DNA of 64,000 nt, from contig CM120642.1 in assembly GCA_051362555.1 (NCBI GenBank), positions 22,940,001 to 23,004,000 of the forward strand. Direction: 5' to 3'. This DNA comes from Lingula anatina (taxonomy: Eukaryota > Animalia > Brachiopoda). The translations under genes were made by a program, and so were the position numbers. The notes below the pieces were generated by a model. The model was not told the origin of the DNA and ran no database searches. It worked only from the letters and a program-made list of their open reading frames with translations. This document shows, one piece after another, positions 14,439 to 28,972 of the stretch; within the stretch, counting starts at the first letter, position 1; each line of letters starts with the position of its first letter.

Positions 14439-15921
14439 GGCAATAATGTGGACATGGGATGAACTTGGTTTAACAAATTCGAACATGACATTACTAAATG
14501 TATGGGCTCCTGTGGGCATTTAAAAGTGTCAACACAAGGTTGTTTTGTTTTTGATACATGAAAATTAGAAGGAAGTTAACAAGATGAATTTGCCTAAATT
14601 TGTTCAACAAAATGGTGAAAACAGACCTGTGCCAAAACGTGTCCAAAATGTGGTTTCTCCAGTATTACAAAATCTCTCCTGAGGTTTCAGAATTGTGTTA
14701 AATAACTGAATCATGGTGGGAAATTTGACAATGAAATGCAGGGAGTTTGAAAACCGGTCCATGGCTGTGTGTCTATAAATATTTCCATCTGTACAAAGTG
14801 AAACCCGGAATGAATCTCATAAAAGTATTTTTGTTGAAATATTTATGTACATCACTCCATTACTCTATCAGAAGTGCTGTGTGGAAAAGTTAAAAAACAA
14901 GGAAATTATTAATGTTAATCTGTATACAGAATCAGAGGTCAGTGTATTAACCCCCCTCCTCCCACTTTTCAAAGTTATTTCAGCTGGAAAACTTTCCCCT
15001 TTAGCACAGATTCTGCCCTGAATCTGACTATTTTGTTGTTGCACTTGTAAACATGGATAAATTAAAGCTATTCATATTTATGCTTGTTTTTATGAATGCA
15101 CGACTGGTGCACAAAATAAAAAGGCAGCTAATAATTGAAAAAGCAAATGTGGAGGCATTCAATGCCCATATTGTAAAGAATTTCAATTTTGGGTAAATTT
15201 GTGCATTGTAAAGTGTCATGCTGCGGTCACAAGTTACTGTCATTCACTTAGTGCAGCATTTATTTATTTATTGCTAATTATAATTCTGTTAGACAATATT
15301 ATATAATCTGGAAGACATGGCAGTAAAAATACAAGAACGTCACTTAAGTGGTGAAAGAAGAAAATTTCCTATCATCACCTACAATAATTTGATAGAGATG
15401 GAAAGTTGTTACACTTGATCAGTCATACACCTTTTATATGAAGTTAGAGTTTTAAAGTGTTAATATTAGTAGTGATTTTGTTACTTTTATGTAATTTTTA
15501 AATTACCATGCAGTATGCACATGTACCATAAGATATGAAAATTAAGGATAATTAAATAGTATTTAAATAAATTAAAAGAATAAAATTATAACCATCAACC
15601 GTTACTTTTAGCTGACTTTCTCACGTTGCTTTCAGTCAGCACATTTCACATAAATTCAACAATCATTCACCAGTGACGAAGACTAAAAATATAGAAGTCA
15701 ATTCTTGCCCAATATGGACCCTTTAAAGTGTTTTTAAAAAACTTAACGATGATGTTTTATTTGATCTCATGATATTGTAAAAATTGATTTCTTGTGTTGT
15801 TATCAAATCAGCAATTTTTTTAATGTAAAAATTTTCTAGCACATTGCTGAAGTTCACGAGACCAGCCCCCATGTTTGGTTTAGCACTGCGAGTAGTGACA
15901 TCTATAGGTCGTGCCAGTAAA

Positions 15922-15932
15922 GGGGAATCCCC
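15922..15932. promoter_or_regulatory. NF-kB site upstream of DTX3L-like gene A
   Basis: GGGGAATCCCC, a canonical kB motif about 130 bp before the putative first splice donor at 16062. Confidence 0.55.
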
Positions 15933-16167
15933 GAGACCAGTGCACCGAGACGGAATTGCGGGCGTAAAACAGCTCGATTTGACAGGCTTAAACCTTGCTA
16001 ACGAAAACATATCGACAAACTTGATTGCCAACGAAGGAGATCAAAGTCGATAAATCAAATGGTAAGTCACATGCGGAGTAACTGGGGATCATTCCGTTAA
16101 TCAAGCCAAGGACAGAATCTATATTTTGGGTCCTAGATCAAGCCGAGAGAACGCCAGATATGAAACT

Positions 16168-24708: not shown

Positions 24709-27700
24709 ATGAATAGACGAACAACAATGCAAAACGAAAGTACACTTTCAATGAGATTTATGGAGTTTGAATACTTGCGAATCCGCCAGAAGGGGGCTGT
24801 TCGCGCTATTGAAGAAGAATGTACCGTAGTCCTCTTTTGGAATAGGGGAAGGGTGCATGCTGTTGGTAAAAGTAAACATGACAGTGACGATGGACTGGGC
24901 CGCTTGACAAACTTACGCGCCAGAGTGCACAGTAAACTTTCACATGTGATTTGCTCCGTCGAAAAACCTAGCACGTTGAACAAAATTAAAAAAGCATATT
25001 CGCAGGTTATAATAAGGCCTATTAAAAATTCACCAAGACATTTAGAAATCATTGGTGATAGAATCCACATGGATGCTATCGTTAAAAAGTTTCTCTCTTC
25101 GAGAAATTCAGCTTTAAAGACTTTAAAGCCTGATAAGCCTATAGGGTCGGCGTCAAAGCAATTTTCTGGTGAGGCCATTGCACTAAAAAATTACGAAAAG
25201 CAATCGTTGTCTCGGCAACCTAAAGCAATCAGCAAAGCACTATACAAAGCTACCAGCCCAACAGCAGCATACACACCGAGCTTACGGAAGACCGCCAGCA
25301 GCAGGCCGATACCTACCGAAGAGCCATCACCTCTATATAAGGCGATCAACAGATCGCTTATAATCAAAGAGACTGCACAAAATCAAACGAAAACATCTCC
25401 GTTTGTGTTTTACTTCAACAATGGTGCTGAACTAACATTTCATAGAGGAGATATCACCAAACAGCGAGTGGACTCTATCGTCAACGCGGCCAATGAAGAA
25501 CTTCATCACAGCGGAGGAGTAGCCAAAGCTATCGCCGACGCCGCTGGGCCCAGCTTGAGAGAAGAATCCGCTGAACTGCGCCGAGCGTATGGTGGACGTA
25601 TCCCCACTGGGAACGTAGTGACCACTGGAGCCGGCCGTCTACCTTGTCGTTATGTGCTCCATGCTGTGGGACCCCATGTGCGAATGCCTGGTTATAAAGA
25701 CCTTCTGGAGGAAACTGTGAAAAATATCGTTGTTGAATGCGGTAACCTTCATCTTCACAGTGTCGCAATACCTGCCATCAGTACTGGTGAGTTGTCCCAT
25801 ATCAACTCCGTTTATCACTTATCGAATGAGTCGATTTCTTTATAAAAAATTCTCACTTTAGACTTTCACAAATTCAAATCGTTCGTTACGGTGCGGCGAT
25901 TAAATCAACAAATGAGACCAATTTAAAAATGATGTTCTAATAAATTTATTAAATGTTAGGTGATGTTTTGCACAAAAATGAGGAAGAAATTATTTCATTT
26001 TTTCTTGTTTGCACGTGCCACTGATCCAAAATTACATCACATTTTGGGTTATTTTACACTAGATGGATTAAAAATTGTTTTAAAGTTTGTAAGTTGATTT
26101 TACTCTTTATTTGAATTAATTTTGGGTTTTGGTCAGCTCGAATTATATAAAGAACTATCTGTCGCAGGCATTTATGGCGTCCCGAAACACGAGGGGGCAG
26201 CGGCAATGAAGCGAGCCCTGAAAAGGAAAGTCGAACAAGAACGGAACACACTTCGACAAATCCGAATGGTTGACACTGGTCAAGAAACAATCTCTATCTA
26301 TAGCAAAATATTCGAGCAGGACGATGATTTCTCTGATGACATGAAAGTAAAGCAGTCAACGTTTGGAGGAGCAGAAGCAACGCCGCTGGGATGGCATGAC
26401 AACGGCGCAGGCGCAGTAGGTTATGACACCTCCACGGCCAAATACAGTGCAAGGAAATATGACGATGAAGATTCTGGTGTTGTATATCAGCGTGGAGCTT
26501 TGTACCAAGCAGATGACGTATACAGTTCTCCTCTGTGCGATCCTACTGACCAGTTTGAGACGGCATCCCGTGAGACCCATGACACAGAGTCTGGTAATTT
26601 CTATCAATCCTTCGAAAGCGGTGCTTTTGATATAGTGCAATGTGTAATGGTTAACTCCACTACAAATGTACATAAAAAGTATAAGCAGTTCGCAGATCGA
26701 CAGATCGCTTTCATTAATGTTTACTCATACATTGTAAGCAGACTAAAAATGAAATTATTCTATCATGATATGATGACAAAAACAAAATACGAACTTTTCA
26801 GCATACGATTGGGGTACTGATTTGTCTCCGTTTGAAGACCATGAAGACGAAGCTGTGTGCCCAATTTGCATGGATACATTTACAGAGAGACAAGATCTGA
26901 AACGATGTGGACACAGTTTTTGCAAGGTAGATATCAGATCTTAGTATAAAGTTTTACATCAATGGAAATGAAACTAAAATATTTATAAAATGTGACGATT
27001 GCTTCCATAGAACACAACGAACCACGTCACTATGACATTTTTTTAGATGAAGTGCATTAATTAGAGGGATTTTAATGTTATTGAGATAAACAGGTTTATA
27101 CAGATCTTAAATCTGTACATCAAATTAAAGGAGTGCTTGTCCCGAGCCCTCAAGATCCAGAACAAGTGCCCGATCTGCGGTGATCTACTGGGCGAACAAA
27201 GAGGGAACCAACCAAAAGGAACCATGAGTGTCAGCTATGAACGCGAGTCTCTTCCAGGCTACGAGGGCTCAGACACGATTGTCATCGATTACGATTTTCC
27301 TTCGGGGAAGCAGAAGGTAACCGAATTCATTTCATTTTTGGTGCTTTTTTACTTGTGCAATTGCATTATATTCGACACAAGAAATGAATGAGCAAATTCA
27401 AAGGCAGTCAGATCTTGAACGAATTTTTGGTACTAATATGTACATTTGATAAGCGATTGTCGTGATGGAAAAAACAATGTTAGCATATGTAAGTTTCTTT
27501 ACCTCATAACTTATAACTCTGTTCTACTGCCAGGAGGAGCATCCTAATCCAGGCGAGCCGTACAAAGGTACAAAACGCAGAGCGTTTCTGCCCAATAATG
27601 CAGAAGGCAGGGAGATTCTTAAACTATTAGACAGAGCCTTTAAGGCCAAGCTTCTATTCACCATCGGTCGGTCCGTCACGACCGGACAGGACAATGTCGT

Positions 27701-28972
27701 AGTGTGGAATGACGTGCACCAAAAAACTAGCCGCACGGGAGGGGTATCAAAGTAAGTTGAAATGATTTGTAATTATTTGTGCGGGTAAGCTTCTAGCTGT
27801 TCTGAAATGGATTCAGACAAAAATAATTCTGTGTTATCATTTAGTATGTTTTAGTCTGTGGATCATATCTGGGTTTGGTAAAGGTGTTGCTCTTGTTATT
27901 TAAATTTGACTCGACTCTCTACTGCCAGGTGCTATGTGCTACCCAAAGTACACAAACAATCCATTAATCATATCGACCGCAGACGACCGTCAACATCATT
28001 AATTAGGTGACAGCATAAGTAGACTTCCAGGCCCTACAGTCCTCCATGATACTGGCAAGCTCATTTATATGCTCCAAGCCAGTGTCCTCAAGGAGAACCT
28101 GGACGTAAGTTTTGATTCGTGTGCTCAATGAGCCATGTGTGGGTACCTAGAGCAGAAATCTATTTGCTGCTGCTTCTGTGTGACGATAAAAAATAACCTC
28201 TCCTGGTATTTCATCTGCCCCATAGCTCTTTCCATTTTTAAGCTGATCTTTAGCTCCCCTCAATTTTTCTTCACCAAAGCTATCTGTTCGAATTGGAAGC
28301 TCATCAAAGGTTTGTTGAATCTCTTCGTCTTCAGCAGAAACTACTGGTGGATTTCCTAGGAGATTTTCAAAGGTTTTGTGCCAGTTGTCAAGTCTCTCCT
28401 GTTGAGATGTGCCTTTTACTTGACACTCATTTGCTCTTTTTCTACCTGTAATGTTGTTAATGGTTTTCCATGCTGAAGAGATATTGTCTCCTTTACTCTC
28501 GTGTTTAATTTCATCCATATTCTTCTGAATATAGTCTTGGTTGGCTTCTAAATATGCTATGGCCAGGTTTGCCTCTGCTGATTGTAGTCTTTCACTTGTT
28601 TGTTGATTGCAGAGTAAGTTGTGAACTTCTGTGGCCTTTACTTCTGTAGCTCTGTTCTCAATTCAAACTCTATCATCCTCACTAGCAAGAAGTACACAAT
28701 GCCATGATAAAGAACACTGCTTTTCAGCAAAATCAAGTTTAATCCATTTATTTGTGAAGCATCTAAAATACTTGGAAAATGTAATAATTAATGAATATCA
28801 CAAGCATGTTCGCATGTGTTAGCAATTATGGATACATTTTAGAAACTAACGCTGAAATAATATCGTCTTCATTACTTCTAGATGTGTTAATTTTTGTTGT
28901 AGGTATGGATACCCTGACCCAACGTACTTTTCACGGGTAAAGGAGGAGTTGGCAGCCAAAGGAATTAAATAA
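24709..28972 (+). CDS. DTX3L: Macrodomain-RING-DTC E3 ubiquitin ligase, DTX3L-like paralog B (688 aa)
   Basis: Exons 24709-25786, 26168-26593, 26838-26926, 27131-27316, 27534-27751, 28903-28972 (2067 nt, in frame). Macrodomain [16 protein letters not shown]...PAISTG|IYG; RING CPICMD...CGHSFCKEC...[36 protein letters not shown]. The last three exons have the same lengths as in paralog A (186/218/70). Confidence 0.9.
28147..28680 (-). mobile_element. LINE ORF2 fragment (region upstream of RT) in the last intron of gene B
   Basis: [12 protein letters not shown]...[15 protein letters not shown]...[16 protein letters not shown], typical of the endonuclease-RT linker. Confidence 0.7.

What the first reader, a model, noticed from the sequence alone, without database searches (positions are those of the whole stretch)
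15900..28972. Tandem pair of macrodomain-RING-DTC fusion genes: PARP9-like and DTX3L-like functions in one chain
Seen: two intact spliced genes (800 and 688 aa). Each joins a MacroD-type macrodomain (NAAN, G/SGGV, ISTGI[F/Y]G across a shared phase-1 intron) to a RING-HC and a Deltex DTC domain. The DTC keeps the His and Glu equivalent to DTX2 H582/E608. Known: vertebrate DTX3L has no macrodomain and obtains ADP-ribose recognition by heterodimerising with PARP9; RING-DTC modules ubiquitylate ADP-ribose, NAD+ and nucleic-acid ends; macrodomains with these motifs (PARP9/PARP14 macro1, MacroD, coronavirus Mac1) hydrolyse mono-ADP-ribose. Inference: a self-contained invertebrate ADP-ribose reader or eraser coupled to a ubiquitin writer, with no PARP domain, probably acting in antiviral immunity. 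Automated pipelines would likely label it only 'DTX3L-like'. I cannot check how widespread or previously described the fusion is.
Basis: partly seen in the sequence, partly recalled or inferred. Interest (0 to 1): 0.85.

Follow-up and report, generated by a model that had tools for sequence, protein, structure and literature searches.

The report
Macrodomain-bearing DTX3L-like immune ligase pair
Two neighbouring spliced genes of a lamp-shell-type marine animal each join an ADP-ribose-type macrodomain to a Deltex ubiquitin-ligase module, a combination found across many invertebrates and already noted in a 2026 preprint, which likely does in one protein what the vertebrate immune pair PARP9 and DTX3L do together.

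Summary
The fusion is real. RNA reads span the macrodomain/RING-DTC junction in both genes, and the nearest database proteins are Lingula anatina RefSeq models.

Corrections: gene 2 is 700 aa, not 688. Both proteins carry an unnoticed KH-like pair. The gene-2 RNA sampled includes an extra stop-bearing exon (27929-28104) that removes the catalytic DTC glutamate; the full-length splice was not listed.

It is not new. 116 of 120 listed relatives have Macro+RING-DTC, from sponges to tunicates. A 2026 preprint (10.64898/2026.04.23.720386) already reports that DTX3L lost a macrodomain as PARP9 arose. My seven literature searches found no biochemical study of the fused form.

Both full-length proteins keep the hydrolase-type macrodomain residues and the DTC His/Glu, as do 78 of 116 relatives. 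Each gene has a consensus kB site about 25 nt upstream of its 5'-most transcript evidence.

Best reading: likely NF-kB-induced, single-chain counterparts of PARP9-DTX3L that need a separate PARP writer; activity is untested. The scan had not reported this on other DNA.

The parts
15922..15932 (.). Consensus kB-type site (GGGGAATCCCC), 27 nt upstream of the 5'-most gene-1 transcript evidence
   Evidence: 5' evidence at 15959 is a contig end, not a mapped start
15959..16061 (+). Gene 1 non-coding first exon, spliced to 17050; the leader holds three short upstream ORFs
   Evidence: joint 16061/17050: X15 6 reads and X5 contig; uORFs
17050..18565 (+). Gene 1 exon 2. ATG at 17092; low-confidence N-terminus with a hydrophobic stretch (aa 52-70); KH-like pair (about aa 200-330); macrodomain up to ISTG
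18929..19383 (+). Gene 1 exon 3: end of macrodomain (IFG), linker, first half of RING-HC
19855..20040 (+). Gene 1 exon 4: end of RING, start of DTC
20202..20419 (+). Gene 1 exon 5: DTC with catalytic His (WNDVHFK)
20673..20742 (+). Gene 1 last coding exon: YGYPDP...KEEL with the catalytic Glu, then stop (800 aa)
24132..24143 (.). Consensus kB-type site (GGGGAATTCCCC), 23-27 nt upstream of the 5'-most gene-2 transcript evidence
   Evidence: 5' evidence
24170..24208 (+). Gene 2 non-coding first exon (5' end approximate), spliced to about 24676
   Evidence: X5 contig joint; X20 loose end, 3 reads
24676..25786 (+). Gene 2 exon 2. ATG at 24709; region alignable to gene 1's KH-like pair (aa 8-130); macrodomain up to ISTG
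26168..26593 (+). Gene 2 exon 3: end of macrodomain (IYG) and linker
26802..26926 (+). Gene 2 exon 4: first half of RING-HC; acceptor is 26802
27131..27316 (+). Gene 2 exon 5: end of RING, start of DTC
27534..27751 (+). Gene 2 exon 6: DTC with catalytic His (WNDVHQK); reading on into the intron stops after GGVSK, matching RefSeq isoform X2 (678 aa)
27929..28104 (+). Extra 176-nt exon of gene 2 with an in-frame stop 94 nt before the last junction; removes the Glu-bearing DTC helix (704-aa product)
   Evidence: joints; translation
28903..28972 (+). Gene 2 last exon: codes YGYPDP...KEEL with the catalytic Glu only if the extra exon is skipped (700 aa)

Best explanation
These are two transcribed, anciently duplicated DTX3L-type genes encoding KH-like/macrodomain/RING/DTC proteins that likely act as immune-induced, single-chain counterparts of vertebrate PARP9-DTX3L, predicted to bind ADP-ribosylated targets, attach ubiquitin to the ADP-ribose and probably remove the mark again. 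Shown: one spliced frame holds all domains, and the known catalytic residues are kept. Inferred steps: (1) a Rel/NF-kB factor induces transcription through the proximal kB site; (2) a separately encoded PARP14-like enzyme mono-ADP-ribosylates proteins or RNA; (3) the KH-like pair binds single-stranded nucleic acid or the PARP partner; (4) the RING holds E2~Ub while the DTC His/Glu activates the ADP-ribose hydroxyl, giving ADPr-Ub; (5) the macrodomain binds ADP-ribose and, having all hydrolase residues, trims or proofreads the mark. Gene 1 is the likely full enzyme. Most sampled gene-2 RNA would give a Glu-less, ligase-impaired protein or be degraded by nonsense-mediated decay.
For: Spliced joints in raw RNA. 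Best solved matches are PARP14 macro1 (E 1.4e-27), PARP9 macro1 (1.2e-19), DTX3L DTC (1.1e-49) and DTX2 RING-DTC. The model of the RefSeq counterpart of gene 1 superposes on PARP14 macro1 (3Q6Z, rmsd 1.5) and DTX3L DTC (3PG6, rmsd 0.8). Both genes have the Asn, loop-1 Gly, loop-2 hydrophobic and aromatic residues that PMC10221186 ties to hydrolase activity. 86 of 116 first macrodomains keep all four, against 2 of 35 later ones, the PARP14 pattern; 105 of 116 keep His+Glu; 78 of 116 keep both sets. The RING linchpin is Gly, as in DTX3, which PMC7615817 says is compatible with ADP-ribose ubiquitylation. PARP9 macro1 removes Ub-ADPr, so writer and eraser are already coupled in the human complex (PMC10810221). 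2 of the 3 kB loci in 64 kb sit just upstream of the two 5' ends; shuffles of the upstream 150 bp give a site in 49 and 42 of 5000. RING-DTC is 73% identical between the paralogues while 80 of 130 third positions differ, which fits an old duplication under purifying selection.
Against: No biochemical or infection data. The kB sites were seen by eye before being tested, and the 5' ends come from contig and read ends. The ISRE-like site in gene-1 intron 1 is no better than chance (34 of 100 shuffles). The residue after the catalytic His is Phe (gene 1) or Gln (gene 2), while 109 of 116 relatives have His; its role is unknown to me. KH fold scores are middling (Z 6.0-6.7, tied with secretin domains). 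The model gives no fixed macro-to-DTC contact (pTM 0.43). A PARP14-like writer in this animal was not looked for, as no genome is held. Read depth is low, about 1-7.
Confidence: 0.65

Rival explanations
1. The macrodomain is only a reader that recruits the ligase to ADP-ribosylated substrates; it does not hydrolyse.
For: 30 of 116 first macrodomains in relatives lack the full hydrolase set, and a third Lingula paralogue (P0150) has a degenerate pocket yet keeps DTC His/Glu. PMC10221186 notes a conflicting report on mouse PARP14 macro1 activity.
Against: Both window genes keep all four residues, as do 86 of 116 relatives, while later macrodomains lose them (2 of 35).
Confidence: 0.25
2. Gene 2 is a recently decaying or down-tuned duplicate: an exonised intronic repeat now captures most splicing, so only gene 1 is a working ligase.
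For: Only inclusion joints were listed. RefSeq isoform X2 also lacks the Glu helix. One contig (X7) has a 1-nt insertion near 27720 that would stop the frame just after the catalytic His.
Against: RefSeq X1 is full length (700 aa). The last exon is intact and conserved in protein sequence despite heavy silent divergence. The promoter kB site is kept. One search hid 21 joints, and the animals were not known to be immune-stimulated.
Confidence: 0.45
3. The main role is non-immune, for example nuclear DNA-damage or chromatin ubiquitylation, as also described for PARP9-DTX3L.
For: Gene 1 begins with a basic NLS-like stretch (PPKKKR; motif recalled). PARP9-DTX3L is recruited to DNA damage (PMC10499325 passages).
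Against: kB sites at both promoters; repeated lineage-specific expansion (three Lingula paralogues group together; many Branchiostoma, oyster and hemichordate entries, some of them isoforms); a fast-changing N-terminus (50-68% identity to the RefSeq counterpart over aa 1-200 against 100% in the catalytic cores).
Confidence: 0.15
4. Annotation artefact: macrodomain and RING-DTC exons belong to separate transcripts.
For: No long read spanning a whole mRNA was available.
Against: The intron lies inside the macrodomain itself. The next exon of gene 1 carries both the macrodomain end and the RING start. Junction reads exist in several runs, and the architecture recurs in 116 of 120 listed relatives.
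Confidence: 0.01

Closest known systems
Macrodomain-bearing DTX3L orthologues of non-vertebrate animals (bioRxiv 10.64898/2026.04.23.720386, Results section 1 and Fig. 1d legend)
   Same: Macrodomain in a DTX3L-type RING-DTC protein. The paper reads PARP9's emergence as coinciding with loss of the DTX3L macrodomain, the same idea as the finding.
   Different: One sentence plus a figure I could not see. In the sections read there is no residue analysis, no promoter analysis, no experiment and no mention of these genes. The Lingula proteins show no RRM Pfam match, which the paper finds in most orthologues.
Human PARP9-DTX3L heterodimer
   Same: KH-like domains, hydrolase-type macro1, RING and DTC with H707/E733 equivalents; immune-type promoter elements.
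   Different: One chain; one macrodomain rather than two; no inactive ART domain; two KH-like domains rather than five; no RRM detected; kB site rather than a shared bidirectional interferon promoter; tandem head-to-tail paralogues.
PARP14
   Same: KH-like to macro1 arrangement; best structural match for the macrodomain; in multi-macro relatives only the first macrodomain keeps the hydrolase residues.
   Different: The C-terminal effector is RING-DTC instead of WWE-ART, so it cannot write ADP-ribose.
RefSeq Lingula anatina LOC106180517 and LOC106180514
   Same: Gene 1 is 84.7% identical to XP_013419979 and gene 2 is 98.4% identical to XP_013419976; both are on record for a contig of the same length.
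   Different: Named 'uncharacterized protein' or 'E3 ubiquitin-protein ligase'. The 704-aa exon-inclusion form is not among the 3 cluster members listed. Gene 1's N-terminus is strongly diverged (allele or close paralogue, unresolved).

Membership tests
Deltex (DTX) E3 ligases | C-terminal RING directly followed by DTC | tested here: met
   Pfam DTC E 5.9e-55 and 2.1e-59 plus C3HC4 RING on the RefSeq counterparts; all 8 zinc ligands present in the window models
Deltex (DTX) E3 ligases | Catalytic His and Glu in DTC (DTX2 H582/E608; DTX3L H707/E733) | tested here: met
   Gene 1 and the 700-aa gene-2 form align to 3PG6 and 6Y22 at both positions; not met by the 704-aa and 678-aa gene-2 forms
Deltex (DTX) E3 ligases | Ubiquitylation of ADP-ribose, NAD+ or nucleic acid | not testable with these tools
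   Needs an assay
DTX3L/DTX3 subgroup | No WWE; KH-like domains N-terminal to the RING | tested here: met
   No WWE in Pfam. Confident two-domain model (pLDDT 87.6) whose Foldseek and VIA hits are largely KH proteins (Z 6.0-6.7, middling); aligns to a shark DTX3L stretch at 23%
DTX3L/DTX3 subgroup | N-terminal RRM | tested here: not met
   No RRM Pfam match in P0028, P0266 or P0150; N-terminus mostly disordered in the model. Many relatives do carry RRM_PARP14 families
DTX3L orthology (versus DTX3 or an independent lineage) | RING-DTC groups with vertebrate DTX3L on a rooted tree | tested here: inconclusive
   Backbone unresolved and no DTX1/2/4 outgroup
MacroD-like / PARP14-macro1 hydrolase-type macrodomain | Asn/Ser and Gly flanking loop 1; hydrophobic plus aromatic residue in loop 2 | tested here: met
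   NAAN, H[G/S]GGV, GI[F/Y]G in both genes, criteria from PMC10221186
MacroD-like / PARP14-macro1 hydrolase-type macrodomain | ADP-ribosyl hydrolase activity | not testable with these tools
   Needs an assay
macroPARPs (PARP9/14/15) | C-terminal ART (PARP) domain | tested here: not met
   No PF00644 match; not a macroPARP, although it works like part of one

The most novel reading that the evidence does not exclude
The single-chain KH-macro-RING-DTC protein is the ancestral animal form of the PARP9-DTX3L machine, an NF-kB-driven enzyme that writes and proofreads ADPr-ubiquitin in cis from sponges to tunicates. This animal tunes the balance by splicing: a repeat-derived exon turns gene 2 into an eraser-only, ligase-dead form until immune stimulation switches on the full-length splice.
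Probability: 0.15. Interest if true: 0.65.

Novelty: new member of a known kind. Interest (0 to 1): 0.35.

Why it matters
The human complex paradoxically couples ADPr-ubiquitin synthesis (DTX3L) with its removal (PARP9 macro1) (PMC10810221). A compact single-chain version with both catalytic sets, conserved in 78 of 116 relatives examined, is a convenient reagent for testing whether the macrodomain proofreads, recruits or competes in cis. The kB sites suggest this immune role predates interferon. The architecture itself is widespread, in public databases and already mentioned in a preprint, so the value is as a test system and supporting evidence, not as a discovery.

Tried and rejected
No whole genome is held, so the family size and a PARP14-like writer in this animal were not examined. 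One search listed no RNA holder by index; same-species raw RNA runs were laid instead.

Macrodomain tree (88 rows; quick tree only, the careful search did not finish): the 14 MacroD-type rows from mostly microbial sources fall on one side (support 93). Animal DTC-fused and PARP-linked macrodomains are unresolved, so one origin versus several, and the donor, cannot be told. RING-DTC tree (55 rows): macro-less rows form two supported groups plus two strays; unrooted, so gain versus loss was not ordered.

ISRE-like site at 16169-16179: not above chance, rejected as evidence. The two promoters are otherwise unalignable. A retrotransposon origin for the gene-2 extra exon is only a lead: no Pfam match, one Atlas cluster with RVT_1 on 23% of members, and LINE-like motifs recalled from memory. 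A family-wide membrane anchor was rejected: 2 of 211 held fusion proteins reach hydropathy 1.8. The ORF at 60899-61336 was dropped from the Pfam scan and not examined. No complex prediction was run.

Literature: seven searches found only the one preprint mentioning the architecture. Term searches in PMC13224862, PMC11251020 and PMC12687431 found no mention of a fusion; PMC7442474 returned no hits for the residue labels. Subscription papers are not covered, and the preprint's figures and supplements were not visible. Scan look-ups gave no matching earlier finding.

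
Full report
1. Observation. Joining exons by coordinate gives gene 1 as an open 800-aa frame (17092-20742, five coding exons, GT-AG introns) and gene 2 as a 700-aa frame (24709-28972, six coding exons). 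Pfam finds Macro (E 1.8e-30 and 1.5e-28 on the large exons), RING-HC and DTC in both. The two proteins are 51% identical over the macro-to-DTC region and share the phase-1 intron in ISTG|I[F/Y]G. The nearest database proteins are Lingula anatina RefSeq models: XP_013419979 (84.7% to gene 1) and XP_013419976 (98.4% to gene 2).

2. RNA. I laid 5 of the 9 raw RNA runs and 3 of the 12 contig runs listed. Every gene-1 intron appears as a joint, including 18565/18929 (X12 2 reads, X18 4, X5 contigs), and a non-coding first exon 15959-16061 splices to 17050. X5 and X7 are labelled 'DNA?' but carry spliced joints, so I take them as RNA assemblies. X3 covers introns and shows no joints. No long read was available, and depth is low.

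3. A correction to 'intact'. Gene-2 RNA includes an extra exon, 27929-28104: 12 reads at the 5' joint (X12 4, X18 2, X19 6), 8 at the 3' joint (X12 4, X15 2, X18 2), plus X5 and X7 contigs. It puts a stop 94 nt before the last junction and yields 704 aa without the YGYPDP...KEEL helix. Even E608Q impairs the DTX2 reaction (PMC7615817 passages), so this form is likely ligase-impaired, and by the usual rule (recalled) it is a nonsense-mediated-decay target. The direct 27751/28903 joint was not listed; one search's list was complete at its threshold, hid 21 joints. RefSeq has a full-length X1 and a truncated X2 that reads into the same intron. The exon overlaps the antisense of a possibly LINE-derived stretch, which is only a lead.

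4. Anatomy. A model of the RefSeq counterpart of gene 1 has three confident blocks: a two-domain unit at about aa 194-327, the macrodomain, and RING-DTC, with disordered linkers. The macrodomain matches PARP14 macro1 best, then PARP9 macro1, by sequence; PARP14 is also the top macrodomain match by fold. RING-DTC matches DTX3L, DTX2 and DTX1. The two-domain unit, folded alone (pLDDT 87.6), hits KH proteins (PNO1/Krr1-type pairs, FBP, vigilin, IGF2BP3, MEX3C) at middling scores shared with secretin domains. Human DTX3L, PARP9 and PARP14 have such KH domains (PMC10810221 passages). No WWE, RRM or PARP domain was found.

5. Catalytic residues. By the criteria of PMC10221186 (passages), both macrodomains have the full hydrolase set. 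Both full-length DTCs have the His and Glu, and the RING linchpin is Gly as in DTX3. Among the 116 fusion proteins: 86 first macrodomains keep all four hydrolase features, against 2 of 35 later ones; 105 keep His+Glu; 78 keep both sets (isoforms and near-copies were not removed). Against this reading, the residue after the His is Phe or Gln here but His in 109 of 116, and a third Lingula paralogue has a degenerate macrodomain.

6. Regulation. The kB consensus GGGRNWYYCC occurs at three places in 64 kb. Two are palindromic sites about 25 nt upstream of the 5'-most transcript evidence of each gene. Shuffles of the upstream 150 bp give a site in 49 and 42 of 5000, and the promoters are otherwise unalignable. 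I noticed the sites before testing them, and the 5' ends are not mapped starts. An ISRE-like site in intron 1 is not above chance.

7. Distribution. With macro+RING+DTC as query, 293 proteins scored E<=1e-20. Of the 120 listed, 116 carry macrodomain then RING-DTC (84 with one macrodomain, 29 with two, 3 with three); the four without are fish. Named sources include sponges, corals and anemones, many molluscs, an annelid, echinoderms, hemichordates, amphioxus and Ciona. Of 110 further 50%-identity representatives, 77 are fusions, 28 DTC-only and 5 macro-only. The ESM Atlas has mollusc-rich and cnidarian-rich clusters of this architecture and a nematode-rich lead. The query favours fusions, so these counts show range, not prevalence. 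Trees group the three Lingula paralogues (support 88 and 80) but do not resolve origin or direction.

8. [quoted passage not shown] That is the finding's central idea. Seven searches found no experimental study of a fused protein. Other papers were seen as passages only (PMC10221186, PMC10810221, PMC7615817, PMC10499325, PMC13224862, PMC11251020, PMC12687431); PMC7442474 gave no passages.

9. Mechanism and verdict. Most likely (0.65) these are NF-kB-inducible single-chain counterparts of PARP9-DTX3L. A separate PARP marks targets, RING-DTC adds ubiquitin to ADP-ribose, and the macrodomain binds and probably removes the mark. Structure, splicing and residues are shown; induction, activity, substrates and antiviral role are inferred. 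Rivals are a reader-only macrodomain, a decaying gene 2 (compatible with the main reading for gene 1) and a non-immune role. They are Deltex-family members and DTX3L-like in working, strict orthology is unresolved, and they are not macroPARPs. Novelty: new member of a known kind; interest 0.35.

Noticed in passing
window 36709-40720 (-): Three long open ORFs: 383 aa; 734 aa with RT, RNase H and Dam-type methylase matches; 412 aa with a tyrosine-recombinase-like motif (recalled, no Pfam match). Looks like a near-intact DIRS-type retrotransposon.
   Followed up: partly
window 48247-51299: Broken ORFs resembling a second, decayed recombinase-type retroelement (by eye; no Pfam match).
   Followed up: no
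window 1241-2326 (-): Retrotransposon gag ORF, 361 aa (PF03732).
   Followed up: partly
window 61609-62361 (+): DDE_Tnp_4 (Harbinger-type) transposase fragment.
   Followed up: partly
window 8400-8762 (-): Exon with a weak protein-kinase match (E 2e-4), part of a neighbouring gene.
   Followed up: no
window 16790-17000 and 21600-21920: High-copy short repeats (read pile-ups and opposite-strand joints): a MITE-like element in gene-1 intron 1 and a palindromic one between the genes.
   Followed up: no
window 17092-17690: Gene-1 N-terminus is only 50-68% identical to its RefSeq counterpart while the catalytic cores are 100% identical. It holds a hydrophobic helix (aa 52-70; hydropathy 1.72 here, 2.15 in RefSeq) that is rare in the family, a possible membrane anchor.
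   Followed up: partly
window 16059-17094: Three upstream ATGs with short ORFs (13, 15 and 11 codons) in the spliced gene-1 leader, a possible translational brake.
   Followed up: partly
window 24674-24675: The gene-2 leader intron used in RNA ends in TG in the window's sequence instead of AG, probably an allelic difference.
   Followed up: no
window 27720: One contig (X7, depth 13) has an extra A in a short A run that would stop gene 2 just after the catalytic His; allele or assembly error.
   Followed up: no
P0150 / P0267 (Lingula, other contigs): Further Macro-RING-DTC paralogues with degenerate macrodomain pockets but intact DTC His/Glu; one is named 'PARP14-like' though it has no PARP domain by my profiles.
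   Followed up: partly
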